DNA of 64,000 bases, taken from Escherichia phage JLBYU50. The translations under genes and the position numbers were made by a program. Below, one piece after another: positions 7,994 through 64,000 of the stretch. A model generated the notes under the pieces. It was not told the DNA's origin. It made no database searches and saw only the letters and a program-made list of their open reading frames with translations. Location: the sequence record OK272470.1, one strand, 5' to 3'. The first letter of the stretch is position 1. Each line of letters starts with the position of its first letter.

Positions 7994-8887
7994 ATGAAAG
8001 TTAGTATTCTGCATGGTGTTGACTGTTATGTTACTGATGTAGACGTTAAAGTCTTTACATTCTCTGGTGGAGAACAGCATGTTCAACTAGATACGAATCT
8101 ATCAGGTTTCAATCATGCTACAGACAGAATCTTACTCACTTTAGAAGTAAGATCTGCTAAAGACTTGATGACTTTGGTTATGACTAAGAATGCATTGGAC
8201 AATATGCTATATCATAAACCATATTGTGTTGATTTGCTCATGTTGTATGTGCCGTATGCACGACAAGACAGAGTGTGTGAGCCTGGGGAAGCATTCGGAG
8301 TTAAAGCCTTTGCTTCTATAATTAATTCATTAAATTTCTCACGTGTTATCGTTGCTGATCCACATAGTGATGTTACGCCAGCAGTGTTTGACAGACTCTG
8401 TGTAATACCTCAAGAAGAGATTGCTTACGAAACTTTAAAGTGGAAGTTACGTATGGAGAATTTTGCTCTTGTTAGTCCTGATGGTGGTGCTCTTAAGAAA
8501 ATATTTAAATTATCTAAGAAAATGTCTTTAGATGTGTTCTGTGCAGAGAAGGTTAGAGATACTGCAACAGGTGCTATTGTTCGTACAGACATTTCTGTAC
8601 AGGATTTCAATAAGCGTAACCTGATGATCGTAGATGATATCTGTGATGGTGGTAGAACTTTTATCGAATTGGCTAAAGTGCTACGTGCTCGTAACGCAGG
8701 TAAGATTGAGTTATATGTTACACACGGTATCTTTTCTAAAGGTCTTAAAGAGTTAAGTGAGCACTTTGACTGCATTCATTCTCTTAATGTGTGGGAAGAT
8801 AACATCCAAGAAGATTCCGGTGTTCTTGTTAAGAATCAGCCAGATTTGCAACAACAAATTGTATCTCCATACGTGTGGAATTTTTAA
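7994..8887 (+). CDS. ribose-phosphate pyrophosphokinase (Prs)-like protein; candidate PRPP or ADP-ribose pyrophosphokinase
   Basis: YVPYARQDR, VIVADPHS, VSPDGGAL and PRTase-type nucleotide loop LMIVDDICDGGRTF; strong RBS. Confidence 0.8.
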   Translation: MKVSILHGVDCYVTDVDVKVFTFSGGEQHVQLDTNLSGFNHATDRILLTLEVRSAKDLMTLVMTKNALDNMLYHKPYCVDLLMLYVPYARQDRVCEPGEAFGVKAFASIINSLNFSRVIVADPHSDVTPAVFDRLCVIPQEEIAYETLKWKLRMENFALVSPDGGALKKIFKLSKKMSLDVFCAEKVRDTATGAIVRTDISVQDFNKRNLMIVDDICDGGRTFIELAKVLRARNAGKIELYVTHGIFSKGLKELSEHFDCIHSLNVWEDNIQEDSGVLVKNQPDLQQQIVSPYVWNF

Positions 8888-8897
8888 ATAATAAGTG

Positions 8898-8926
8898 TTG
8901 ACAATAGGGAGTATGCTTAGTAAGAT
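8898..8926 (+). promoter_or_regulatory. sigma70-like promoter upstream of Nampt-family gene
   Basis: TTGACA 8898-8903, 17-nt spacer, TAAGAT 8921-8926. Confidence 0.5.
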
Positions 8927-8958
8927 ACTCCCACACTAACAAACAAGGAGACATAACT

Positions 8959-10692
8959 ATGAATATTTTTGCACCTTTTGCTACTGATTGGTATAAACCT
9001 GGTCACAAGCAGATGTACAACCAAAATACAAAACTCATTTTCTCTAATTTAACTCCTCGTAATGATAAAAACTTTGCACACTATGCAGATCGTGAAGCAC
9101 GTGGTGTGATTGTTTTAGGTATTCGTCGAGCAGTTACTGATGCTCTTGTAACTATGTGGGATGGCTTCTTTAAAATGTCTCGTAGTGCAGCAGTAAATAA
9201 ATTTTATCGTATGTCTAAGAATGCATTAGGTGCTTCTGCTCCTTCTGCTGAATGTTGGGGAGAATTGCACGATTTAGGTTATCTTCCGCTAGAAGTTCGA
9301 TCTCTGCCAGAAGGTGTTTTGTGTCCTATTGGTGTTCCTGTGTTTACTGTGCATAACACTTTAGAAAAATTCTTTTGGTTAACTAACTATGTGGAAACAC
9401 TCTTGTCAGATGAAACTTGGAAGACAATGACTAATGCCACAGCAGCTTTTCAGTATAAGCGTATCGCTATGGCGTATGCGATGGCAACGTGTGATAACAT
9501 TGATCACGTTAATTTCCAGTGTCATGATTTTAGTCTACGTGGCTTAAGCAATATCGAAGATGGTTATAAGAGTGGTATCGCTCATTTGGCATCTTTCACA
9601 GGAACAGATAATATTCTGGCTATTGAAACTGTGCATGATTACTATGGTATTGATTATGATCAATTTGTTGCAGGTTCTATTCCGGCAACAGAACATTCAG
9701 TAGCAACGACTAATATTGGAGCTATTGTTGAAGATCTGAAGAAACATTTCCCACATCTTAAAGATGATGTTGATGGGCTTCGTTATGTAGCAGAGAAAGA
9801 GTTTCTTCGCCGCTATATTGAAGAAATTGTTCCAGAAGGTTTTTGTTCATATGTAGCAGATTCTTATGATTACTGGGCTGTCTTGACTCGCATTCTGGTA
9901 GAATTGAAAGAGTCCATTATGTCACGAAATGGTCGTCTTGTTATTCGTCCAGATTCAGGAGATCCGGTTAAAGTTGTTGCAGGATACAATGTTGAATCTT
10001 TTGATAACTATGAAGACCTTTTAAATAATGGTATTGCGACAGCTACTGAAGTAGTTCATTTGGCTGATGTTAATAAGTATTACAATGTTCTTCAGGATTG
10101 TAGCGTTGCTGATTGTATTGATGAAACTTATGAGATTCCTTATTGTGAAGCAGTAGGTTCTATTCAAATCCTTTGGGAAGTGTTTGGCGGTACTATCAAT
10201 CGAAAAGGCTACAAGGTTCTTGATCAGCACATCGGTATGATTTATGGTGATTCTATTACTGTTGAACGAGAACACGAAATCTTACTCCGACTGAAGAAGA
10301 AAGGCTTTGCTGCTTCCAATATTGTATTTGGTGTTGGTAGTTATACTTATCAGTTCAATACACGAGATACTTTTGGTTTTGCTGTTAAAGCAACAGGTAG
10401 TATCATCGGTGAACACGAAATTTTGGTAAGTAAGGAGCCTAAAACTGATCCTGGTAAACGCTCTGCAAAAGGTTTTATTAAGGTTGTTAAGGATACAAAT
10501 GGTAAACTTTCTCTTGTGGATAATCTTTCTTTTAAAGATATTCAAGATGAAGACAATGAGTTAAAAGTTATCTTCAGGGATGGTACGGTTATTACACCAC
10601 AAGTAGAAGGACGTGATGAAACATTTACTGATATCCGCAACCGTGTTGATGTAGAGGTTCTTCGTACTATGGGAACCATCCAGGTTGACTAA
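8959..10692 (+). CDS. nicotinamide phosphoribosyltransferase (Nampt)-family protein
   Basis: block-by-block match to Nampt: ATDWYKPGHKQ, LPEGV..FTVHNT..FWLTNYVETLL, HDFSLRGLS, FTGTDN, PATEHSV, ADSYDYW, VIRPDSGDP, IVFGVGS..NTRD, DPGKRSAKG. Confidence 0.85.
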   Translation: MNIFAPFATDWYKPGHKQMYNQNTKLIFSNLTPRNDKNFAHYADREARGVIVLGIRRAVTDALVTMWDGFFKMSRSAAVNKFYRMSKNALGASAPSAECWGELHDLGYLPLEVRSLPEGVLCPIGVPVFTVHNTLEKFFWLTNYVETLLSDETWKTMTNATAAFQYKRIAMAYAMATCDNIDHVNFQCHDFSLRGLSNIEDGYKSGIAHLASFTGTDNILAIETVHDYYGIDYDQFVAGSIPATEHSVATTNIGAIVEDLKKHFPHLKDDVDGLRYVAEKEFLRRYIEEIVPEGFCSYVADSYDYWAVLTRILVELKESIMSRNGRLVIRPDSGDPVKVVAGYNVESFDNYEDLLNNGIATATEVVHLADVNKYYNVLQDCSVADCIDETYEIPYCEAVGSIQILWEVFGGTINRKGYKVLDQHIGMIYGDSITVEREHEILLRLKKKGFAASNIVFGVGSYTYQFNTRDTFGFAVKATGSIIGEHEILVSKEPKTDPGKRSAKGFIKVVKDTNGKLSLVDNLSFKDIQDEDNELKVIFRDGTVITPQVEGRDETFTDIRNRVDVEVLRTMGTIQVD

Positions 10693-11438: not shown

Positions 11439-11514
11439 GGTTCCATAGCTCACTGACGAGAGCGCACACCTCATAAGTGTCGAGGGCAGGGATTGTAACC
11501 CTGGGGAACCACCA
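11439..11514 (+). tRNA. tRNA with CAT anticodon (Met/Ile-type), non-canonical D- and T-loops
   Basis: complete cloverleaf: acceptor GGTTCCA/GGGAACC, D-stem GCTC/GAGC, anticodon loop CTCATAA, T-stem CAGGG/CCCTG, encoded ACCA; T-loop is ATTGTAA rather than TTCRANY. Confidence 0.45.
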
Positions 11515-11545
11515 TTTAAAAGGAGGTGCTATGCATCTCCTATAT

Positions 11546-11631
11546 GCAAGTGTGGTGGAATTGGTGATACACATTGTGCTTAAAACGCAACGCTTAAATG
11601 CTTGAGGGTTCGAATCCCTCCACTTGCACCA
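11546..11631 (+). tRNA. tRNA-Leu (anticodon TAA)
   Basis: acceptor GCAAGTG/CACTTGC, anticodon loop CTTAAAA, long variable arm, T-loop GGTTCGAATCC, ACCA encoded. Confidence 0.8.
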
Positions 11632-11647
11632 ACACCTAAAAAAATAT

Positions 11648-11677
11648 CTTGACATTTACTTAGTTTTTTGTTATAGT
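11648..11677 (+). promoter_or_regulatory. sigma70-like promoter inside tRNA array
   Basis: TTGACA 11648-11653, 18-nt spacer, TATAGT 11672-11677. Confidence 0.45.
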
Positions 11678-11687
11678 TACTATGAAA

Positions 11688-11769
11688 ACGGGGTGTATCT
11701 CACCTGACTTCTAATCAGGCGTTAACCGAGTAATTGGAGTATGCAGGTTCGAATCCTGTCACCCCGGCC
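11688..11769 (+). tRNA. atypical tRNA-like gene, anticodon hairpin reads TCT (Arg-type)
   Basis: perfect acceptor CGGGGTG/CACCCCG, canonical T-arm GCAGG-TTCGAAT-CCTGT, GCCA 3' end, perfect hairpin CCTGA-CTTCTAA-TCAGG; no conventional D-arm fits between acceptor and this hairpin. Confidence 0.4.
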
Positions 11770-11787
11770 AAAAAGTTTTAAAAACTA

Positions 11788-11817
11788 CTTGACAAGCAAG
11801 ATAGTTTTATGTTAGAT
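11788..11817 (+). promoter_or_regulatory. sigma70-like promoter inside tRNA array
   Basis: TTGACA 11788-11793, 18-nt spacer, TAGATT 11812-11817. Confidence 0.4.
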
Positions 11818-11833
11818 TTAAAGTATAATAACT

Positions 11834-11923
11834 GGAAGGTAGGGCGCAGCGGTGCGCAACCAGGTTTGAACCCTGGCCCATTGTAGCGATACGGTGATGG
11901 TTCGACTCCATTATCTTCCTCCA
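11834..11923 (+). tRNA. tRNA-Ser (anticodon TGA)
   Basis: acceptor GGAAGGT/ATCTTCC, anticodon stem CCAGG/CCTGG with loop TTTGAAC, long variable arm, T-loop TTCGACT, TCCA 3' end. Confidence 0.7.
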
Positions 11924-11929
11924 AATTCA

Positions 11930-12094
11930 ATGAGTGATTTTATGAATTATAAAACTATTGGACAGGTTGTTACCGGAGTTAAGATTGTAAATAATAAAGT
12001 TGTTTATGAGTATTCTAATCTTCAACAATCTGAAGATGGTAAGAATATTCGTATGGTAAAAGAAGAACAAAAAGATTCCGGTTGTTTTGAATAA
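11930..12094 (+). CDS. possible small protein (54 aa) between tRNA genes
   Basis: ORF-track ORF 11894..12094 starts inside the tRNA-Ser; first ATG after the tRNA is at 11930; no clear RBS. Confidence 0.25.
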   Translation: MSDFMNYKTIGQVVTGVKIVNNKVVYEYSNLQQSEDGKNIRMVKEEQKDSGCFE

Positions 12095-12102
12095 TTAAAA
12101 AC

Positions 12103-12188
12103 GGTAGATTGGTGAAATGGTAGCCACAACAGTTTGCTAAACTGTCGTCGGAAACGGCGTGTAGGTTCAAGTCCTACATCTACCGCCA
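12103..12188 (+). tRNA. tRNA-Ser (anticodon GCT)
   Basis: acceptor GGTAGAT/ATCTACC, anticodon stem ACAGT/ACTGT loop TTGCTAA, long variable arm, T-arm TAGG-TTCAAGT-CCTA, GCCA. Confidence 0.8.
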
Positions 12189-12315
12189 AGTTATCTTTAA
12201 TGTAGCTTGTCATCTTACTTTAATAGAGTAAACTTTCGGCAGATGGCCCCCCACCATCTTACCGATATCCCATAGTCAAGTGCCGCAAACACTGGCTATT
12301 TTAAAGATAATTTAT

Positions 12316-12391
12316 ACATCGTTAGCTTAGTTGGTAGAGCAAGGGGCTTTTAACTCCAAGGTCGAAGGTTCGAATCCTTCACGATGTACCA
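12316..12391 (+). tRNA. tRNA-Lys (anticodon TTT)
   Basis: acceptor ACATCGT/ACGATGT, D-arm TAGCTTAGTTGGTAGAGC, anticodon loop CTTTTAA, T-loop GGTTCGAATCC, ACCA. Confidence 0.75.
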
Positions 12392-12396
12392 AACAC

Positions 12397-12483
12397 GTAG
12401 GTATCGCATAGCGGCAATTGCTGGAGACTGTAAATCTCTTGCCCTTCGGGGCTTCGTTGGTTCGAGTCCAACTACCTGCACCA
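12397..12483 (+). tRNA. tRNA-Tyr (anticodon GTA)
   Basis: acceptor GTAGGTA/TACCTGC, anticodon loop CTGTAAA, long variable arm, T-arm GTTGG-TTCGAGT-CCAAC, ACCA. Confidence 0.75.
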
Positions 12484-12490
12484 AATTAAA

Positions 12491-12575
12491 GATGGATTGG
12501 CCTAGTGGTTGGGCGACGGACTGTTAATCCGTGAACGAAAGTTCTAGCAAGGTTCAAATCCTTGATCCATCGCCA
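12491..12575 (+). tRNA. tRNA with GTT anticodon (Asn-type) carrying a long variable arm
   Basis: acceptor GATGGAT/ATCCATC, anticodon stem ACGGA/TCCGT loop CTGTTAA, 15-nt variable hairpin GAAC-GAAA-GTTC, T-loop GGTTCAAATCC, GCCA. Confidence 0.55.
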
Positions 12576-12580
12576 AATAG

Positions 12581-12646
12581 TGCTTGTAGAGTTAATAGAA
12601 ACCTCTAGAATTTTCTAGAATTGTAGGTATCAAATCCTACCAAGCA
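12581..12646 (+). other. degenerate tRNA-like remnant
   Basis: acceptor-like TGCTTG/CAAGCA and T-arm-like GTAGG-TATCAAAT-CCTAC, but no foldable anticodon arm and no CCA. Confidence 0.25.
12604..12620. repeat. tandem direct repeat TCTAGAA-TTT-TCTAGAA
   Basis: two copies of TCTAGAA (each containing palindromic TCTAGA) separated by TTT, read directly at 12604-12620. Confidence 0.7.
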
Positions 12647-12654
12647 AATATTTT

Positions 12655-12729
12655 GCTCCTATCGTATAACGGCTATTACGGTTGCCTTGTAAGCAACTTA
12701 TCAGGGTTCGAGTCCTTGTGGGAGCACCA
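12655..12729 (+). tRNA. tRNA-Thr (anticodon TGT)
   Basis: acceptor GCTCCTA/TGGGAGC, anticodon stem GTTGC/GCAAC loop CTTGTAA, T-loop GGGTTCGAGTCC, ACCA. Confidence 0.8.
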
Positions 12730-12751
12730 ATTTAACTCTAAAGGAGTGTAT

Positions 12752-13075
12752 GTGACAGAAAAAGAGTTAGAGGAATATTTTAATATCAATGTTTTCGATG
12801 GTTTTGATGATATTGAAGATGTTGAAAGATATTATGAAGTAGAGTTAGATAAGGATAACATTGTAATTCTTTCTGCAACTTATGATTGTGCATATTATGA
12901 AGGCGAATCTCACGTTTATTTTTATGATATGAAAACATCTTTGTTTTATGAAGTACACGCATATCATTGTTCTTGTTATGGCTTAGAAGGTCAGTGGGAA
13001 CCTGAAGAAATAGGTGATTTGGACTTTACTATTGCATATCTAAACAGACGTGGTGCATCTACTATTTTAAAATAA
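12752..13075 (+). CDS. hypothetical protein (107 aa)
   Basis: ORF-track ORF 12653..13075 starts inside tRNA-Thr; start re-set to in-frame GTG at 12752, 5 nt after AAGGAG. Confidence 0.4.
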   Translation: MTEKELEEYFNINVFDGFDDIEDVERYYEVELDKDNIVILSATYDCAYYEGESHVYFYDMKTSLFYEVHAYHCSCYGLEGQWEPEEIGDLDFTIAYLNRRGASTILK

Positions 13076-13089
13076 ATATCAAAAGCCTC

Positions 13090-13119
13090 TTGACAAAGGG
13101 GCTAATAATATGTTAGAGT
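13090..13119 (+). promoter_or_regulatory. sigma70-like promoter inside tRNA array
   Basis: TTGACA 13090-13095, 18-nt spacer, TAGAGT 13114-13119. Confidence 0.4.
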
Positions 13120-13130
13120 AATATTGTTAA

Positions 13131-13205
13131 GCGGGTATAGTGTTAATGGTAGCATATGAGGTTTCCACCCTCCAGGTGCAGGTTCAAGTCCTGTTACTCG
13201 CTCCA
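13131..13205 (+). tRNA. tRNA-Gly (anticodon TCC)
   Basis: acceptor GCGGGTA/TACTCGC, anticodon loop TTTCCAC, T-arm GCAGG-TTCAAGT-CCTGT, TCCA. Confidence 0.75.
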
Positions 13206-13304
13206 AGATTATTTAAATGGAATCGCTAGAGAAAATTTCTCTTTTCGCTCATGGTTTTCTCCTTCAAACTCTAGCGGTTCTTTTTAAGTGATTTTTAGTT
13301 TTAT

Positions 13305-13379
13305 TGGAGATTAGCCTAGTGGGAAGGCAACGGCCTTTGAAGTCGTGATGACTAGGTTCGATTCCTAGATCTCCAGCCA
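13305..13379 (+). tRNA. tRNA-Gln (anticodon TTG)
   Basis: acceptor TGGAGAT/ATCTCCA, D-arm GCCTAGTGGGAAGGC, anticodon loop CTTTGAA, T-arm CTAGG-TTCGATT-CCTAG, GCCA. Confidence 0.8.
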
Positions 13380-13386
13380 ATATTTA

Positions 13387-13462
13387 CAGTGCGTAGCGCA
13401 GTTGGTAGCGTGGGAGCCTTGGACGCTTCAGGTCGCAGGTTCGAGTCCTGCCGCACTGACCA
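13387..13462 (+). tRNA. tRNA-Pro (anticodon TGG)
   Basis: acceptor CAGTGCG/CGCACTG, D-arm GCGCAGTTGGTAGCGT, anticodon loop CTTGGAC, T-arm GCAGG-TTCGAGT-CCTGC, ACCA. Confidence 0.8.
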
Positions 13463-13467
13463 AATTT

Positions 13468-13542
13468 GCAGAGATAGCTGAGACGGATTAGTGCTACCCT
13501 GAAAAGGTAGAAAGGATGGATCGTTACCATCTCTCTGCACCA
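13468..13542 (+). tRNA. tRNA-Phe (anticodon GAA)
   Basis: acceptor GCAGAGA/TCTCTGC, anticodon stem CTACC/GGTAG loop CTGAAAA, T-stem GATGG/CCATC (loop ATCGTTA), ACCA. Confidence 0.7.
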
Positions 13543-13617
13543 AATATCACCATCCAAGGAGTAGACTTGGTTAACTGTCAATAGCACATTGAGGCTTCTT
13601 ACAGTGGTGTATTTTAT

Positions 13618-13702
13618 GGCTAAGTGGTGGAATGGTATACACGATACGCTTAGAACGTATTGCCCCAAGGGATTGTGAGTTCGAGTCTCACCTTAGCTAC
13701 CA
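13618..13702 (+). tRNA. tRNA-Leu (anticodon TAG)
   Basis: acceptor GGCTAAG/CTTAGCT, anticodon stem ATACG/CGTAT loop CTTAGAA, long variable arm, T-arm GTGAG-TTCGAGT-CTCAC, ACCA. Confidence 0.8.
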
Positions 13703-13780
13703 TATCTAAGAGATATCATAGGGTTTGCAACGGATATCTACCGTCCTGTTAAGGATACCACGCCAAGACGGGTTATAAAG

Positions 13781-13856
13781 GGTTAGCCATTGATAGTGTG
13801 AAGCTGGCGTTTCGAGTGCTTTCATAAGGCATTGCGAGAAGAGTTCGATCCTCTTA
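13781..13856 (+). tRNA. tRNA with CAT anticodon (Met or Ile-lysidine type)
   Basis: perfect acceptor TGATAGT/ACTATCA, anticodon loop TTCATAA, T-arm AAGAG-TTCGATC-CTCTT, ACCA. Confidence 0.65.
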
Positions 13857-13871
13857 CTATCAACCAAATTA

Positions 13872-13950
13872 TTACAGATTGTGCGGGATAGAGGAGTCTG
13901 GTCGTCCTCGCCAGTTTCATATGCTGGAGATCATCGGTTCGAATCCGATT
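13872..13950 (+). tRNA. tRNA with CAT anticodon (Met or Ile-lysidine type), 1:72 mismatch
   Basis: acceptor TGCGGGA/TCCCGCC with unpaired first position, anticodon loop TTCATAT, T-arm ATCGG-TTCGAAT-CCGAT, TCCA. Confidence 0.6.
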
Positions 13951-13994
13951 CCCGCCTCCAATAAATACCTCCCTTCTGGTGTAATGATTAAGTT

Positions 13995-14091
13995 ACATTG
14001 ACACTTCAAGGAACTCATAGCCGGGTAGATTTAAAAGAGTATGGTACTCAATATGGCTCCAAACCATAGATCAGGGGGTTCGATTCCTCAC
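13995..14091 (+). tRNA. tRNA-like element with Trp-type anticodon arm (CCA); 5' half non-canonical
   Basis: perfect anticodon arm TATGG-CTCCAAA-CCATA, T-loop GGTTCGATTCC, GCCA 3' end; no 7-bp acceptor partner at the expected distance, only a 5-bp CAAGG/CCTTG pairing about 40 nt upstream. Confidence 0.35.
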
Positions 14092-14106
14092 CTTGCTGCC
14101 AATTAT

Positions 14107-14182
14107 TGTGGTATCGTACAGATGGTTAGTACACTCGACCGATAATCGAGAAACAACGGTTCGACTCCGTTTACCACGACCA
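14107..14182 (+). tRNA. tRNA-Ile (anticodon GAT)
   Basis: acceptor TGTGGTA/TACCACG, D-arm GTAC-AGATGGTTA-GTAC, anticodon stem CTCGA/TCGAG loop CCGATAA, T-arm AACGG-TTCGACT-CCGTT, ACCA. Confidence 0.75.
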
Positions 14183-57068: not shown

Positions 57069-59648
57069 TCAGTGACAACTAGCCCATGAGTTACCAACAT
57101 CGTAACCAGCAGTGAGAGGTACATTAAGATTGTAATACTCACCAGCTTTATTAACAGCAATAGATGCTAATTCTCCAGCACGACTGTAGGCTGTAAACCA
57201 ACCACCTTTCGGAGATTCATGTACGTTAGCCCAAATCTTGCCAGTACGTTTCTCTTCCTCTTCTTTCCAGGTATTAACTTTATCCAAACATTCTTTATCA
57301 ATTTTCTTTTGTTCTTCTGGATCATCAACTTGAGTCCAACCTAAAGATTCTTTAGAGAACCATTTAAAATGCACCAGATCACGAGTTACTTCAAGCTGTG
57401 CTTCATCGTGGTATGCAATCATTTGTTGAACGAATGACTTATTTTTCCAGTCATCAACAAAAAAGTCAACAGCTAATCCTTCTTCTTCGATAAGATCATC
57501 GTAGATAACCATTGCTCTTTTTGCACAAATAACACCACCACTCTGGAACAGAGAGTTAAGTATTGCGTGTGCAGATCGTGTAGGTACTTTCCTTCCATCA
57601 ATACCAAGAATGTATTTCTTACCTGTTTTAACCCAAAAATCATGCAGACGTTCTTTAAGAAGAGCAAGAGGTTTTGCAGCTTCCCAGAAAGCATCGTATA
57701 CAAGCTGTCCTGTATACATATCACTACCAATGGTTTTTGCTACTTTTGCAGCTTGAGCACCATAAGTAATACCATACTTAACAGATTTAGCAGGGCTTCG
57801 TTCAAACTTACGACCAATAGTATCAGAAATACGTCGAGCCATCATTGTATGAACATCATTAGGTTTTTCCAACAATAGAGCATTACAATATTCGTGTGGT
57901 TCCTGCTCGTACCGCCAACAGTAGTGTGATTCTATTTTTGCCTCAAGAGAATCAAAGTCATAACCAATTTGGAAGTATTTTGGAACTTCTACACCAAATA
58001 AGTTACGCATTTCATATCCGTACAGAGATGTTACACGTGGGATATTTGCTACTAACCTATGTTTCATACGAGATGTAGCTGCATCACACGTTGCAGCAGG
58101 AGTTGGTATACGACCATCAGCCCTTACTGCTGCCAGATAACCTTTATCGTAATCCTCTTCATCTTCTTCCCAATCAGCACCACCCCCTAAAATAGAGTTC
58201 CTACGGTGTTTATACGTAAGATACTGCACAATCTGCGTAGCATAAGGAAACTTTTCACCTAGTGCTTCCAAGTTAGGACAAATATCTTTCTCTTGCCCTT
58301 TTGTAAAGGAAGGGTTAGTAAGCACTTTAACACCACGACCTTTAGCTTTAGCAATACGATCTCTTAGTTTCCATTCCAAAGTTTCTGGTGTGCACTCCAG
58401 ATGATCACATCTGTCCTGGCAGAAGTTAGATGCTAATGTTTGATCAACGTAGTCACGAATAGCTTTCTCCATTTGTGCTTCATCTTTCTTAATCTTAGTG
58501 CCAGATTTAAGAGTGATATCTTTATCTTTATATTCAGATGGACTCCAACCTAAACCAACTAACCAGTTTTTAATATGTGTAGTGTCATCTAAAGTAGCAG
58601 GTACTGTAGGATCACAAATAGGTTCTTCTGCTGGAATAGGGAGTTTAAACTCTTTACCTAATGCAAATAACCACCAACCATCTTCTTTTTGTACAAGTTC
58701 ACCAGAATGTTTCTCTGCAAACTTTATCATGTTACTTGAAGGTTCACCATTCTTTTTAAACTGTAGTTTAGGTGGAATGAATGATTTCAAATAACCTTTA
58801 GTAGCAGGTTTGGGAGGTAGTACAGGTTCTGCCTCTAAACGACATGCTTCCATTCGAGCATCCAGATCACGAATATTATCTTCTGCTTGTTTCATATTGA
58901 AAGCAAAGCCACGGTGCTCTTGACGTGTAATAATATCAGCTACACGTTGTTCTAAGTTAAATGGTTCAGACCACTTATTATAATCACCCCACTCTTCCAT
59001 CAAATAACGGAACACTGCGGTGTTAGCTTTGTTATCGTAAATACAGTAATACAGCATATCTGCTGCAAATGTTTTAAATCTTTCAGTTTCAGGAATGTTT
59101 TTTCTAAAATCAATTTTAACATCCCCTCCAGCTTTCTTAGATAACTCTGCCAGACTATGACCACCGAAGCGATCAGGGTTTAGTGTCTTACTTAAGATCA
59201 TAGTATCACAAATTTCAATGTTACTATTACCCCAAGTATTGTACTTAATACTATAGTTGAGTTTAAAAAATAATTTAATTGCCAGTAAGTCGAAGTTAAT
59301 GATGTTGTGTCCAACTACTTTGGTAATTTTATAGTTTGAATTACCTTTAAATTTACCTGTTCCATTTACAAAATCAGGAAAATCTTTAAGAGGGAAATGG
59401 GTATATTCTAAATGCTCATATTCCTCCAGTCGGTATTCATACTTTCCGTCAGTCTCAATATACGGACGACCATCGAAAAGATATTTATCACCATCATGGA
59501 AAGCAATAATCTCTCCAGTATCATGACTTTCGCACACAATACAGTGCATTGCAAAACTATCTTTTAAACGATATGGACTTGCCAAGTAATCTACACTTTC
59601 GTCATTAAGCAAGTTGTTACTTTCAATGTCGAAAGTAAAAGCTCCCAT
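57069..59648 (-). CDS. DNA polymerase, family A, with 3'-5' exonuclease
   Basis: Exo I FDIES near N-terminus; motif A DFDSLEAKI, motif B KSVKYGITYG, motif C YHDEAQ in canonical order. Confidence 0.8.
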   Translation of the reverse strand: MGAFTFDIESNNLLNDESVDYLASPYRLKDSFAMHCIVCESHDTGEIIAFHDGDKYLFDGRPYIETDGKYEYRLEEYEHLEYTHFPLKDFPDFVNGTGKFKGNSNYKITKVVGHNIINFDLLAIKLFFKLNYSIKYNTWGNSNIEICDTMILSKTLNPDRFGGHSLAELSKKAGGDVKIDFRKNIPETERFKTFAADMLYYCIYDNKANTAVFRYLMEEWGDYNKWSEPFNLEQRVADIITRQEHRGFAFNMKQAEDNIRDLDARMEACRLEAEPVLPPKPATKGYLKSFIPPKLQFKKNGEPSSNMIKFAEKHSGELVQKEDGWWLFALGKEFKLPIPAEEPICDPTVPATLDDTTHIKNWLVGLGWSPSEYKDKDITLKSGTKIKKDEAQMEKAIRDYVDQTLASNFCQDRCDHLECTPETLEWKLRDRIAKAKGRGVKVLTNPSFTKGQEKDICPNLEALGEKFPYATQIVQYLTYKHRRNSILGGGADWEEDEEDYDKGYLAAVRADGRIPTPAATCDAATSRMKHRLVANIPRVTSLYGYEMRNLFGVEVPKYFQIGYDFDSLEAKIESHYCWRYEQEPHEYCNALLLEKPNDVHTMMARRISDTIGRKFERSPAKSVKYGITYGAQAAKVAKTIGSDMYTGQLVYDAFWEAAKPLALLKERLHDFWVKTGKKYILGIDGRKVPTRSAHAILNSLFQSGGVICAKRAMVIYDDLIEEEGLAVDFFVDDWKNKSFVQQMIAYHDEAQLEVTRDLVHFKWFSKESLGWTQVDDPEEQKKIDKECLDKVNTWKEEEEKRTGKIWANVHESPKGGWFTAYSRAGELASIAVNKAGEYYNLNVPLTAGYDVGNSWASCH

Positions 59649-61929: not shown

Positions 61930-62199
61930 CTAAAATGATTCGTTTGTCTCCATAATATATTGCATTTCCAAATCTTCCATATGTTTCTTAAATTGGTAAA
62001 CAATTTCCGATGGGGAAATATCTATATCAAAAAGTTCTTTTGTACCAGAATAAAATCTAATACCATCAACAATAAGACCACCATAATAATCCCAATCACT
62101 TTCTCGTGAGAAAGGGTTAGGTTCTTCATAATAGTAATCTACTTCAACAATAATAGGTTCTTTATTATCTTGTTTATACTCAAAATCAAAAGTGTTCAT
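61930..62199 (-). CDS. hypothetical protein (89 aa), acidic
   Basis: ORF track. Confidence 0.4.
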   Translation of the reverse strand: MNTFDFEYKQDNKEPIIVEVDYYYEEPNPFSRESDWDYYGGLIVDGIRFYSGTKELFDIDISPSEIVYQFKKHMEDLEMQYIMETNESF

Positions 62200-63143
62200 T
62201 ATAAATCCTCGATAAGCAGTCTGCGGGTTTCATTTAAATCATCAATATTGTAGTTATCTCTTACATACTTAGCAAGAGCCAATCCTTTCTCAATACAAAC
62301 ATCAGGGGATTCGATTAAGTATTCTACAATATCTTTCCACTCTTTAACTGAATCAGCAAAGAAGATTAGATCTTTAAATTCTTCAGTATAGTAGTTCTCT
62401 CGTGGTGAACAAACGAGTGGCAAACCTTTAGCACCAGCTTCAAGAATTTTTAAATTACTTTTGGCATTATTAAAATGATTATTTACTAACGGAGCTATGG
62501 AGATTTGATGACCATCGTATGCTTCCATATAGCACTCATAAGGACGAATACCTTCATAAACACAATTTGGTTGAATATCTTCTTTAATTTGCAACCATTG
62601 AGCACTACTTAACTCTTCGTGATCTCTACGAAATCCACATAAAGTTAAATCTTTACCAAAACTAGGAAGAATAGCTAAATCATGTTTATGTGTTTCACTT
62701 CCCGCCCAAACCAGTGGACTTTTAGAATAACGATCTTTAGTAAGAACAAACTGTCCTTCATCAAAAGGTAGTCCGTTAGGCACAATATGTACATTATCAT
62801 TGTATTGGCTTAATTCAACCTTTAATGCTGGAGTTGTTGTAGTTACAAGATCGCTTCTTTCAAGGAACCATTTTAGGTCATCTCGGATTTGATTTTCAAA
62901 TAATCCTTCCAGCATATGCCCTTCAGGAATAATTAAAGAATCATCCAGATCCATTACCAATTTAAACCCAAGTTGTTTAAGAGCCAGGAAACCTGGCTTT
63001 CCACGGGTTGGTACTCCATTGAACACAAAAATATTATGCTTAGGATTAATGGTCAGTTTGCGTTTATATGGCAAAATGATTCTGTGAAAATCACATACAC
63101 TATACTTTTCATTTCCGCGTGTGTCAAGAATAATATTAGGCAT
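62199..63143 (-). CDS. GT-B fold glycosyltransferase-like protein (paralog 1)
   Basis: C-terminal SNLKILEAGAKGLPLVCSP resembles GT-B E-x7-E/Gly-loop donor-binding block; paralogous to adjacent gene. Confidence 0.55.
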   Translation of the reverse strand: MPNIILDTRGNEKYSVCDFHRIILPYKRKLTINPKHNIFVFNGVPTRGKPGFLALKQLGFKLVMDLDDSLIIPEGHMLEGLFENQIRDDLKWFLERSDLVTTTTPALKVELSQYNDNVHIVPNGLPFDEGQFVLTKDRYSKSPLVWAGSETHKHDLAILPSFGKDLTLCGFRRDHEELSSAQWLQIKEDIQPNCVYEGIRPYECYMEAYDGHQISIAPLVNNHFNNAKSNLKILEAGAKGLPLVCSPRENYYTEEFKDLIFFADSVKEWKDIVEYLIESPDVCIEKGLALAKYVRDNYNIDDLNETRRLLIEDL

Positions 63144-63154
63144 ATCGCTCCTTA

Positions 63155-64000
63155 TTAAAGACTTTCAATAACTTGACGACGCAGTTCATTGGCATCTGCA
63201 AGATTATAATTAAGACGAACGTGTTCTGCAAGCATCATACCACGATCTTCTGTGTATCTAGGGTTCCTCATTAGCTTGACAACTTCATAATGCCAAGATG
63301 CTTTAGAGTCTGCATAGATAACAGCCTTTGCATCTACCGGATTGAAGTACGGCAGCACAGGAGAACAGATAATAGGAAGACCCTTTGCACCTGCTTCCAA
63401 AATCTTCAAATTGCTTTTACAGTTGTTGAAGTCATTATCTACCAGAGGAGCAATTGCAATACTGTGACCGTCATACACAGACATATACTCACCTAAATTT
63501 TTAATAGCTGGTTTATACTGTGCATTTGGAATTTTACGTTTTACTTTAACCCACTCCGCAGTAGTTAGATACTGACTATTATTTCCAACAGGTGCAGAAG
63601 GATACACTTCATACCCTGCAATTGTCAATAGTGTATCATCAAATGTATTAGCTACAAGAGATAAATCAGGCTCATGGCTTGCTCCTCCAGCCCAAACAAT
63701 AGGCGTGTCAGAATAACGGTCTTTTGTTAAAGTAAATTGACCTTCGTCGTAAGGCAGTGCGTTTCTAATAACGACAACATTACGATTTAAATGACGAATT
63801 TTGTAAGCTAGGTATTCTGTTGTTACTGTAACAACATCTGCTAACTTAACCATCTCTACAATAGTCTTTGAGTGATTAGTAAATACGCCAGCCATATAAT
63901 GTTCAGGATTAAGCGAATAAAAATCATCTAAATCAACAATAATCTTAACACCTTGTGCCTTCAGGCGTTTAACTTCGTCTGATCCACGAGAATACACTCT
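63155..64000 (-). CDS. GT-B fold glycosyltransferase-like protein (paralog 2; N-terminus beyond window edge)
   Basis: shares LPYDEGQFTLTKDRYS..WAG, YDGH.I.IAPLV.N.FNN.KSNLKILEAGAKGLP with paralog 1; alignment implies about 35 residues lie beyond position 64000. Confidence 0.5.
   Translation of the reverse strand, partial: RVYSRGSDEVKRLKAQGVKIIVDLDDFYSLNPEHYMAGVFTNHSKTIVEMVKLADVVTVTTEYLAYKIRHLNRNVVVIRNALPYDEGQFTLTKDRYSDTPIVWAGGASHEPDLSLVANTFDDTLLTIAGYEVYPSAPVGNNSQYLTTAEWVKVKRKIPNAQYKPAIKNLGEYMSVYDGHSIAIAPLVDNDFNNCKSNLKILEAGAKGLPIICSPVLPYFNPVDAKAVIYADSKASWHYEVVKLMRNPRYTEDRGMMLAEHVRLNYNLADANELRRQVIESL

What the first reader, a model, noticed from the sequence alone, without database searches (positions are those of the whole stretch)
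62199..64000. Tandem paralogous GT-B glycosyltransferase-like genes inside the replication module
Seen: two adjacent minus-strand genes share long conserved blocks (L/V-DLDD, LP-DEGQF-LTKDRYS, WAG, YDGH-I-IAPLV-N-FNN-KSNLKILEAGAKGLP). The C-terminal block resembles the GT-B donor-binding motif. They lie directly downstream of primase-helicase and polymerase. Established: T-even phages encode two GT-B glucosyltransferases that glycosylate hydroxymethylated DNA to evade restriction. Inference: candidate DNA (or other) glycosylation system. No hydroxymethylase is visible in this window, so the substrate is open.
Basis: partly seen in the sequence, partly recalled or inferred. Interest (0 to 1): 0.6.

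Follow-up and report, generated by a model that had tools for sequence, protein, structure and literature searches.

The report
Paralogous phage glycosyltransferases, probably not DNA-modifying
Two neighbouring, related sugar-transferase genes in a phi92-like E. coli phage are real and already annotated in close relatives; they are half of a four-enzyme sugar-building operon whose target is unknown, and the evidence argues against T4-style sugar-coating of the DNA.

Summary
Window 62199..63143(-) encodes a complete 314-aa protein (GT-a). Window 63155..64000(-) encodes the last 281 of 337 residues of a paralogue (GT-b). They are 42% identical (E 8e-74). An AlphaFold model of GT-a (pLDDT 94) is a GT-B fold closest to GT4-type enzymes.

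The window is a phi92-like phage (Justusliebigvirus), 99% identical to sequenced phages in which both genes are already annotated as glycosyltransferases. Just beyond the window lie two more glycosyltransferase genes, and relatives also carry a dTDP-rhamnose operon.

DNA glycosylation is not supported:
- There is no profile or fold affinity to T-even glucosyltransferases.
- A close relative has only a ThyX-type thymidylate synthase and no ThyA-type hydroxymethylase or TET/JBP enzyme.
- Published tests show phi92-like phages are unusually sensitive to restriction and to BREX, and are not hit by a modification-dependent nuclease.
- The same GT-A+GT-B pair occurs in lambdoid Pseudomonas prophages next to the terminase genes.
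- Family members also occur as modules of giant multi-glycosyltransferase proteins.

Most likely the module builds a short, probably rhamnose-containing glycan on a non-DNA acceptor. I favour a virion protein, at low confidence; host envelope glycans are the main rival. Ordinary as an annotation, with an open functional question.

The parts
62199..63143 (-). GT-a: complete 314-aa soluble GT-B glycosyltransferase; the divergent, lineage-specific copy of the pair
   Evidence: ORF. PHROG 7162 'glycosyltransferase', E 4e-145. Pfam Glyco_trans_1_2 at 28.4 bits against a cut-off of 25. AlphaFold pLDDT 94 with a GT-B fold. At most 41% identical to all homologues other than its own orthologues. No hydrophobic segment; pI 5.3.
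63155..64000 (-). GT-b: C-terminal 281 of 337 codons of the paralogue. The start codon lies about 170 bp beyond the window. This is the mainline copy of the family.
   Evidence: 42% identical to GT-a. 280/281 residues match the PaulScherrer bas60_0049 tail. 66% identical to the single-copy gene of Klebsiella Stephanstirmvirinae phages and 52% to that of an unrelated smaller phage. PHROG 7162, E 2e-131.
61930..62199 (-). 89-aa very acidic protein (pI 4.1), translationally coupled to GT-a (TAATG overlap). Membership of the module is uncertain.
   Evidence: ORF. PHROG 4240, unknown function. A weakly similar 83-92-aa ORF sits between the GT-B gene and the primase-helicase gene in Klebsiella phages and in metagenomic phages. 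It is absent from the prophage and terminase-linked versions of the pair.

Best explanation
GT-a and GT-b are soluble GT-B glycosyltransferases. They form the 3' half of a four-glycosyltransferase operon: a 187-aa glycosyltransferase, a 228-aa GT-A enzyme with a DDD motif, then GT-b and GT-a. This operon is conserved in phi92-like and phAPEC8-like phages, which also encode their own dTDP-L-rhamnose pathway.

I propose that the operon assembles a short, probably rhamnose-containing oligosaccharide on a non-DNA acceptor. One of the small GT-A-type enzymes would attach the first sugar. The GT-B enzymes would add sugars onto sugars, and the diverged duplicate GT-a would supply an extra residue or linkage in the E. 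coli phage clade. The acceptor I favour is a phage structural (virion) protein, so that progeny particles carry a glycan coat.

Shown: the fold, the paralogy, the operon, co-occurrence with rml genes, and the lack of a hydroxymethyl-base pathway. Inferred: the donor sugars, the division of labour and the acceptor.

My confidence that the products are glycosyltransferases is about 0.95. My confidence that this is not a T-even-like DNA hypermodification is about 0.85-0.9. My confidence that the acceptor is a virion protein is only about 0.3-0.35, and that is the figure entered below.
For: - Fold and family.
- Four adjacent glycosyltransferase genes in relatives. The third is a GT-A fold with an invariant FDDD motif.
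- The dTDP-rhamnose operon rmlBADC is present in relatives. RmlD is found in the same phage set as the GT-B gene: 106 Escherichia records each, plus Klebsiella Stephanstirmvirinae.
- The GT-A+GT-B pair recurs, adjacent and in the same order, in unrelated phages. In a lambdoid Pseudomonas prophage and a ~36-kb metagenomic phage it is the last thing before, or the first gene of, the terminase-portal-capsid block. A Streptomyces phage homologue also sits directly before the small terminase gene, with a UDP-glucose dehydrogenase and a methyltransferase. A role shared by virulent and temperate phages and expressed with structural genes fits virion glycosylation.
- The family is large: 3,578 50%-identity clusters at E<=1e-30. 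It includes giant proteins with 2-4 such modules fused to GT2, methyltransferase and TPR domains, the architecture of glycan-chain builders. This suggests a sugar acceptor for the GT-B step.
- The best structural match of the GT-A neighbour is A197 of the archaeal virus STIV.
- From memory, not tested here: virus-encoded sugar-nucleotide pathways plus several glycosyltransferases are the known recipe for capsid or fibril glycans in chloroviruses, mimiviruses and some mycobacteriophages (Freeman et al. 2023).
Against: - No virion glycan has been reported for phi92-like phages, and I could not test for one.
- In this phage the genes lie in the early/middle gene block beside the replication genes, not with the structural genes.
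- Position next to the terminase in lambdoid prophages is also where lysogenic-conversion 'morons' sit, which favours the host-envelope rival.
- Bacterial chromosomal homologues have heterogeneous neighbours: an invasin-like adhesin in Burkholderia dolosa and a fimbrial operon in another contig.
- The invariant Glu235 would normally contact a ribose 2'-OH (inference from known GT-B enzymes). This hints at a UDP/GDP-sugar rather than a dTDP-sugar donor for the GT-B enzymes, so the rhamnose link is by co-occurrence only.
Confidence: 0.33

Rival explanations
1. Host envelope remodelling. The cytoplasmic glycosyltransferases add rhamnose and other sugars to lipid-linked intermediates of LPS core, O-antigen or enterobacterial common antigen. 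Infected (or lysogenic) cells and their debris then stop binding phage, giving receptor masking, superinfection exclusion or serotype conversion.
For: - phi92-like phages depend on ECA and the LPS core as receptors (PMC8594841, read).
- dTDP-rhamnose is a classic O-antigen/LPS precursor (established knowledge).
- In the lambdoid Pseudomonas prophage the pair occupies the position between the NinG region and the terminase genes, where conversion genes often sit.
- GT4-like GT-B enzymes include the LPS core enzyme WaaG/RfaG, and one GenBank record names the gene 'RfaG'.
- Family modules occur in multi-domain polysaccharide-synthase-like proteins.
Against: - Known phage serotype conversion mostly uses membrane-bound Gtr-type or polymerase/acetylase proteins (knowledge). 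All four proteins here lack hydrophobic segments.
- In a virulent phage with a short latent period, newly made glycan would not replace receptors already on the surface (inference).
- These phages have very broad host ranges, so a variable O-antigen is an unlikely common acceptor.
- Homologues occur in Streptomyces and Arthrobacter phages, whose hosts have no LPS.
Confidence: 0.25
2. DNA glycosylation. The enzymes put sugars on modified bases of phage DNA to evade restriction, possibly only at rare sequence-specific sites.
For: - The genes lie beside the primase-helicase and polymerase genes.
- The neighbouring 228-aa GT-A gives weak, sub-threshold hits to the TET-associated glycosyltransferase family (23.3 bits against a cut-off of 27.5) and to the PHROG of T-even beta-glucosyl-HMC-alpha-glucosyltransferase (E 5e-5 over about 40 residues).
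- The genome encodes a genuine C5-cytosine methyltransferase that could in principle feed an oxidation-glycosylation route.
- The idea was floated in PMC7552041.
Against: - There is no hydroxymethyl-base source. The thymidylate synthase is ThyX-type, and no ThyA-like hydroxymethylase or TET/JBP/2OG oxygenase was found among 36 unannotated proteins of at least 137 aa from a close relative, scanned with Pfam (35, one more).
- hhalign probabilities to real T6 DNA glucosyltransferases are 1% and 3.8%.
- T4 enzymes are absent from the top fold matches.
- phi92-like phages are unusually sensitive to type I-III restriction-modification systems (PMC8594841). PATM, which is 98.7% identical here, is restricted 10^7-fold by BREX and is not a BrxU (GmrSD) target (PMC8565348).
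- The same gene pair occurs in a lambdoid prophage that carries host-dependent lambda O/P-like (DnaT-domain, protein P) replication genes and no base-modifying genes nearby.
- GT-a, the GT-A and the 187-aa glycosyltransferase are acidic (pI about 5-5.6).
Confidence: 0.07
3. Glycosylation of a host protein or a small molecule for takeover or counter-defence. Examples would be inactivating a host factor, or decorating a metabolite made by the adjacent Ter/PRTase/HAD/macrodomain gene set.
For: - GT4-like relatives include small-molecule glycosyltransferases (MshA, BshA, TreT) and protein O-glycosyltransferases (SdgB, GtfC) among the top fold matches.
- A Ter-type module with a ComF-like PRTase, a HAD phosphatase and a macrodomain lies 5-12 kb upstream in all Stephanstirmvirinae contexts seen.
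- The genes are in the early/middle block.
Against: - The GT-A+GT-B pair occurs without any Ter genes in the other phage lineages.
- Four glycosyltransferases plus a dedicated sugar-nucleotide pathway suggest an oligosaccharide rather than a single modification.
- No specific target can be named.
Confidence: 0.15

Closest known systems
GT4-type GT-B glycosyltransferases (MshA, BshA, TreT, PglA, TarM, SdgB); Pfam Glyco_trans_1_2 / Glyco_trans_1_4
   Same: Two-Rossmann-domain GT-B fold. The C-terminal nucleotide-sugar-binding block has an invariant Glu in L-E-A-G-x-x-G-x-P. These are the best fold matches (Foldseek E about 1e-9, probability 1.0) and there are weak Pfam hits.
   Different: Only 12-17% identity. 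The first Glu of the canonical E-x7-E motif is Ala or Cys here (sequence). The N-terminal domain has its own invariant set (H20, R21, D65-x-D67-D68, H76, N123, H152, D155). Donor, acceptor and stereochemistry are unknown.
T-even phage DNA alpha- and beta-glucosyltransferases (and T2/T6 beta-glucosyl-HMC-alpha-glucosyltransferase)
   Same: Phage-encoded, soluble, GT-B fold (alpha- and beta-glucosyltransferase), with genes placed among replication genes.
   Different: No detectable family relationship. The genome has no dCMP hydroxymethylase or other source of a hydroxymethyl base. The phage DNA behaves as unmodified towards restriction-modification systems, BREX and a GmrSD-type nuclease (PMC8594841, PMC8565348).
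Virus-encoded virion glycosylation machineries (mycobacteriophages Che8/Corndog/Myrna; chlorovirus and mimivirus capsid or fibril glycans; STIV A197). Recalled from the literature, not tested here.
   Same: Several virus-encoded glycosyltransferases plus a virus-encoded sugar-nucleotide pathway (here dTDP-rhamnose). In small relatives the genes abut the structural module. The GT-A neighbour's best structural match is STIV A197.
   Different: No glycan has been shown on any Stephanstirmvirinae particle. Only distant sequence links exist to actinophage glycosyltransferases (27-30% identity over part of the protein).
Multi-module polysaccharide synthases (WbdA-like O-polysaccharide builders with methyltransferase terminators)
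   Same: Full-length homologues of this GT-B module occur 2-4 times in proteins of 800-3,200 aa, together with GT2, methyltransferase and TPR domains.
   Different: The phage proteins are single-module and stand-alone. The comparison to WbdA-type enzymes is by architecture and from memory, not a tested homology.

Membership tests
GT-B fold glycosyltransferase superfamily | Two Rossmann-like domains with the nucleotide-sugar site in the C-terminal domain | tested here: met
   AlphaFold model pLDDT 94.4, pTM 0.92. 267 PDB chains match at E<=1e-3, and the listed top matches are almost all GT-B glycosyltransferases.
Pfam Glyco_trans_1_2 (PF13524) / GT4-like clan | Score above the curated gathering threshold | tested here: met
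   GT-a scores 28.4 bits against a cut-off of 25. The GT-b fragment (14.9 bits) and full-length GT-b (14.3 bits) fall below it and qualify only through 42% identity to GT-a.
GT4 family (CAZy sense) | Canonical E-x7-E motif in the C-terminal domain | tested here: not met
   The second Glu (E235) is invariant, but position 227 is Ala in GT-a and Cys in GT-b. The motif definition is from memory. CAZy assignment itself is not testable with these tools.
T-even DNA glucosyltransferases | Sequence, profile or closest-fold relationship to T4/T6 alpha- or beta-glucosyltransferase | tested here: not met
   No such Pfam family at E<=1. hhalign against T6 alpha-glucosyltransferase gives probability 3.8%. 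Not in the top 50 of PDB or BFVD fold matches.
Glycosylated-hydroxymethyl-base DNA hypermodification system | An enzyme that makes the hydroxymethyl base (ThyA-family dCMP/dUMP hydroxymethylase, or TET/JBP oxygenase acting on 5mC) | tested here: not met
   In the 98.7%-identical relative PaulScherrer the only thymidylate synthase is ThyX-type. 36 unannotated proteins of at least 137 aa gave no TET_JBP, 2OG-oxygenase or ThyA hit (35, one more). Limits: Pfam sensitivity, proteins shorter than 137 aa not scanned, and the check was made on a relative because the window covers only 64 kb.
Glycosylated-hydroxymethyl-base DNA hypermodification system | Virion DNA resists restriction and is a target of modification-dependent nucleases | not testable with these tools
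   Literature only. phi92-like phages are 'exceptionally susceptible' to restriction-modification systems (PMC8594841). PATM and Pau are BREX-sensitive and not in the BrxU-sensitive class (PMC8565348). I found no nucleoside LC-MS of a phi92-like phage; PMC13390438 analysed only T-even-like phages.
TET-associated glycosyltransferase / beta-glucosyl-HMC-alpha-glucosyltransferase family (for the neighbouring 228-aa GT-A, outside the window) | Score above the Pfam threshold, or profile similarity to T6 ggt | tested here: not met
   23.3 bits against a cut-off of 27.5, covering 60 residues only. PHROG 842 at E 5e-5 over 41 residues. hhalign against T6 ggt gives probability 1%. Fold matches are generic GT-A enzymes.
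Phage virion-glycosylation operon | Glycan demonstrably attached to capsid or tail proteins and dependent on the phage glycosyltransferases | not testable with these tools
   Only contextual support: terminase-adjacent position in small relatives and the rml co-occurrence.

The most novel reading that the evidence does not exclude
phi92-like and phAPEC8-like coliphages use a four-glycosyltransferase operon plus their own dTDP-rhamnose pathway to coat virion proteins with a rhamnose-containing oligosaccharide. This would be the first virion glycosylation system in phages of Gram-negative bacteria, with consequences for stability, immune recognition and host range of phages widely used in therapy cocktails. 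The core GT-A+GT-B pair would be a mobile 'virion glycan' cassette shared with temperate Pseudomonas phages. A less likely novel alternative is sparse, sequence-specific DNA glycosylation that the restriction systems tested so far do not reveal.
Probability: 0.3. Interest if true: 0.6.

Novelty: already known. Interest (0 to 1): 0.3.

Why it matters
As an annotation it adds nothing. The genes are 98-99.7% identical to genes already labelled glycosyltransferase (or 'putative disaccharide synthase') in dozens of GenBank phage genomes. The DNA-glycosylation idea has already been raised and doubted in print.

What remains open, and easy to test, is what a strictly conserved set of four glycosyltransferases plus a complete dTDP-rhamnose pathway does in a family of broad-host-range phages that is popular for therapy. 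If the product is a virion glycan it would affect serum neutralisation, stability and receptor interactions. If it remodels the host envelope it would be a new exclusion mechanism.

Tried and rejected
- T-even-type DNA glucosyltransferase: rejected.
- Hydroxymethylase hiding as the 323-aa 'thymidylate synthase' of relatives: rejected, because it is ThyX-type.
- TET/JBP route from the phage's C5-methyltransferase: no oxygenase found.
- TAGT membership of the neighbouring GT-A: sub-threshold and not confirmed by profile comparison or fold.
- Sequence search of solved structures: only marginal GT4 hits and a spurious designed TIM-barrel repeat.
- NCBIfam: no hits for any of the four glycosyltransferases.
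- Promoter and terminator scan: counts no different from shuffled sequence, so no operon boundaries could be called.
- Bacterial chromosomal contexts were inspected for a common acceptor (Burkholderia invasin-like neighbour, a fimbrial operon). The neighbours are unrelated to the phage GT-A or 187-aa glycosyltransferase and give no consistent clue.
- Literature searches for functional work on these genes in phi92, Justusliebigvirus and Stephanstirmvirinae found none.
- Kelly et al. 2023 (Durham collection) could not be read, so the identity of 'Pau' with phage Paula (LR865361) rests on the name only. PATM is unambiguous.
Full report
**What is there**

The last 1.8 kb of the window carries two co-directional minus-strand ORFs.
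- GT-a lies at 62199..63143 (314 aa).
- A second ORF starts beyond the window end and stops at 63155.
- The window holds only the C-terminal 281 codons of the second gene. In relatives it is 337 aa, and 280 of 281 window residues match the PaulScherrer orthologue.
- The genes are tightly packed: an 11-nt spacer, then a TAATG stop/start overlap with an 89-aa acidic ORF, then the primase-helicase gene.
- A consensus promoter/terminator scan is indistinguishable from shuffled sequence and shows no terminator between these genes.

**Whose genome it is**

- The region is 99.2% identical to Escherichia phage vB_Eco_J-01 and 98.6-98.9% identical to about 50 other phi92-like phages (Justusliebigvirus, Stephanstirmvirinae). 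These include PaulScherrer (BASEL Bas60), PATM and Paula.
- In many of those records both genes are already annotated 'glycosyltransferase', 'putative disaccharide synthase' or 'RfaG glycosyltransferase'.
- Both proteins match PHROG 7162 'glycosyltransferase' at E 1e-131 to 1e-145.

**Fold and family**

- Pfam gives only weak hits, all to the C-terminal half: Glyco_trans_1_2 at 28.4 bits for GT-a, just above threshold, and Glyco_trans_1_4.
- An AlphaFold model built on 51 homologues is confident (pLDDT 94.4, pTM 0.92) and shows two Rossmann-like domains.
- Foldseek against the PDB returns GT4-type GT-B enzymes: a mycobacterial mannosyltransferase, TreT, MshA, BshA, GlgM, SdgB and PglA. E-values are about 1e-9 at 12-17% identity.
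- Against predicted viral structures it returns unnamed phage and giant-virus 'group 1' glycosyltransferases.
- T4 alpha- and beta-glucosyltransferases are in neither top-50 list.
- A profile of the family aligned to the real T6 alpha-glucosyltransferase gives 3.8% probability.
- The family-invariant residues are H20/R21, D65-x-D67-D68, H76, N123, H152 and D155 in the acceptor-side domain, and K228, S229, K232 and E235 in the donor-side domain.
- The first Glu of the textbook GT4 E-x7-E motif is not present (sequence; motif from memory).
- The proteins have no hydrophobic segments. GT-a is acidic (pI 5.3) and GT-b basic (pI 8.9).

**The window cuts a larger unit**

- In relatives the two GT-B genes are preceded, in the same operon, by two further genes. 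One encodes a 228-aa protein and the other a 187-aa protein, both called glycosyltransferase.
- The 228-aa protein models as a GT-A fold (pLDDT 88.6) with an invariant F-D-D-D motif. Its best structural match is A197 of the archaeal virus STIV, followed by assorted polysaccharide glycosyltransferases.
- The 187-aa protein matches only phage 'glycosyltransferase' PHROGs.
- Elsewhere in the genome relatives carry a complete rmlBADC operon for dTDP-L-rhamnose. RmlD occurs in the same set of phages as the GT-B gene: 106 Escherichia records each, plus Klebsiella members.
- Klebsiella Stephanstirmvirinae have only the 187-aa glycosyltransferase plus one GT-B at the same position.
- GT-b is the mainline copy. 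It is 66% identical to the Klebsiella single copy, 52% to a copy in a smaller unrelated phage, and 42-45% to Pseudomonas and other bacterial copies.
- GT-a is a diverged duplicate, at most 41% identical to everything except its own orthologues.

**Where else the module occurs**

- The 228-aa-type GT-A and the GT-B occur as an adjacent pair, in the same order, in three other settings:
  - a metagenomic phage, again just before a small ORF and the primase-helicase gene (47% and 39-52% identity);
  - a lambdoid Pseudomonas prophage, between the NinG region and the small terminase, after a small Big_2-domain protein (42% and 37-42% identity);
  - a ~36-kb metagenomic phage, as the first two genes of the terminase-portal-capsid operon.
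- A Streptomyces phage homologue also sits directly before the small terminase gene, with a UDP-glucose dehydrogenase and a methyltransferase.
- Another metagenomic phage combines two such GT-B genes with a GT2 and sugar-nucleotide-modifying enzymes.
- An exhaustive profile search finds 3,578 50%-identity clusters at E<=1e-30 with full-length matches. They include proteins of 800-3,200 aa with two to four copies of the module fused to GT2, methyltransferase and TPR domains. That is the architecture of glycan-chain builders, and it suggests that this GT-B type adds sugar to sugar.

**Is it a DNA glycosylation system?**

The evidence says no, in five independent ways.

1. There is no family link to T-even enzymes (above). 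The weak, sub-threshold similarity of the neighbouring GT-A to the TET-associated / beta-glucosyl-HMC-alpha-glucosyltransferase family is not confirmed. hhalign against T6 ggt gives 1%, and the fold matches are generic GT-A enzymes.

2. No enzyme makes an acceptor base. The 'thymidylate synthase' of relatives is ThyX-type. A Pfam scan of 36 unannotated proteins of at least 137 aa from PaulScherrer found no ThyA-like hydroxymethylase and no TET/JBP or 2OG oxygenase. A genuine C5-cytosine methyltransferase is present.

3. The published phenotype points the same way. [quoted passage not shown]

4. Picton et al. found PATM and Pau among only five BREX-sensitive phages, at seven orders of magnitude, and not in the class cut by the modification-dependent GmrSD-type nuclease BrxU (PMC8565348). 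PATM carries these same genes at 98.7% identity.

5. The cassette lives in a lambdoid prophage that carries host-dependent lambda O/P-like (DnaT-domain, protein P) replication genes and has no base-modifying genes nearby.

The caveat is that nobody seems to have run nucleoside LC-MS on a phi92-like phage. The 2026 Durham-collection paper analysed only T-even-like phages. A sparse, site-specific modification would escape the restriction tests.

**What it most likely does**

I conclude that the operon assembles a short glycan on a non-DNA acceptor, with the GT-B enzymes as extenders and rhamnose as a likely constituent. Three points support this: four soluble glycosyltransferases in one operon, a dedicated sugar-nucleotide pathway that travels with them, and homologous modules in glycan-polymerising proteins.

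The acceptor is not determined by anything I could compute.
- I favour a virion protein (about one chance in three). The cassette is shared by virulent and temperate phages of different hosts. In the small phages it is embedded at the head of the structural gene block. From the literature, virus-encoded sugar pathways plus glycosyltransferases are how chloroviruses, mimiviruses and some mycobacteriophages glycosylate their particles.
- The main rival (about one in four) is remodelling of host envelope glycans (LPS core, ECA, O-antigen) for receptor masking or conversion. This fits the prophage 'moron' position and the ECA/LPS dependence of these phages. It fits less well with a fast lytic cycle, with the absence of membrane segments, and with actinophage homologues.
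- Glycosylation of a host protein or metabolite, possibly linked to the nearby Ter/PRTase/HAD/macrodomain genes, and DNA glycosylation are less likely.

**Novelty and score**

- The genes, their glycosyltransferase annotation and the DNA-glycosylation speculation are already in the public record. As a finding this is 'already known'.
- The useful additions here are:
  - the explicit negative tests against the T-even analogy;
  - the recognition that the window truncates a four-gene operon;
  - the identification of GT-b as the ancestral copy and GT-a as the diverged copy;
  - the observation that a GT-A+GT-B core cassette is shared with temperate Pseudomonas phages and terminase-linked in small phages.
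- The functional question is open and experimentally cheap. Interest 0.3.

Noticed in passing
beyond window end; L001:16156-18376 (PaulScherrer bas60_0049-0051), L002:16155-18375: The window truncates a four-gene glycosyltransferase operon. Upstream of GT-b lie a 228-aa GT-A enzyme (FDDD motif) and a 187-aa glycosyltransferase with no Pfam match.
   Followed up: yes
L004:20206-23467 (PaulScherrer bas60_0210-0213), not in the window: A complete dTDP-L-rhamnose operon (rmlB, A, C, D) sits among nucleotide-metabolism genes. RmlD has the same phage distribution as the GT-B gene.
   Followed up: partly
L003:6473-13104 (bas60_0063-0072); also L022 and L024: A tellurite-resistance-like (Ter) gene set (TelA, vWA-TerF-like, TerD, TerC) lies 5-12 kb upstream of the glycosyltransferase operon, together with a ComF-like PRTase, a HAD hydrolase and a macrodomain protein. 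The TelA/vWA-TerF-like/TerD part is conserved in the Stephanstirmvirinae contexts seen; the rest was seen in PaulScherrer. A CapR-homology-domain protein was also detected in the PaulScherrer scan, position not determined. Function in a phage is unexplained.
   Followed up: no
L003:2506-3015 (bas60_0055) and three small ORFs at L003:1815-2495: A second, SleB-like cell-wall hydrolase (Pfam Hydrolase_2 in orthologues; endolysin PHROGs), followed by three 64-92-aa ORFs, lies immediately upstream of the glycosyltransferase operon. It is distinct from the annotated endolysin elsewhere in the genome.
   Followed up: no
window 61930-62199 (-): An 89-aa very acidic protein (pI 4.1, 21 Asp+Glu) is translationally coupled to GT-a. 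A weakly similar small ORF sits between the GT-B and primase-helicase genes in several phage lineages. It could be a DNA mimic or a replication accessory; unknown.
   Followed up: partly
window 7994-10692 (+): A PRPP-synthetase-like gene is followed by a nicotinamide-phosphoribosyltransferase-like gene (annotation of relatives). From memory this pairing resembles the phage NAD+ reconstitution pathway NARP1 that counters NAD-depleting defences; not tested.
   Followed up: no
window 11439-14182 (+): An array of 16 tRNA genes, including three tRNA-Met(CAT)-type genes.
   Followed up: no
window 57069-59648 (-): The DNA polymerase I gene is uninterrupted here (859 aa). The PaulScherrer orthologue carries an intein (1,104-aa precursor), as does its UvrD-like helicase.
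   Followed up: no
GenBank MG065689, MG065650, MG065656 ('Campylobacter phage A110a, B15, C3'): Records labelled Campylobacter jejuni phages are 76-99% identical in these proteins to E. coli phi92-like and phAPEC8-like phages. They have the same genome size and are unannotated, so the host labels are probably wrong.
   Followed up: no
L008:3025-8440 (Burkholderia dolosa) and L026:1-7963: Chromosomal homologues of the GT-B sit next to an invasin/intimin-like adhesin in one case. In the other they sit next to a chaperone-usher fimbrial operon with two small recombinases. This is a possible hint of adhesin glycosylation, but the neighbours are not homologous to the phage partners.
   Followed up: partly
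L012:6835-7266: In the Pseudomonas prophage the gene immediately before the GT-A+GT-B pair encodes a small Big_2 (Ig-like) protein with a Thr/Ala-rich tail. It is a conceivable glycan acceptor; speculative.
   Followed up: no
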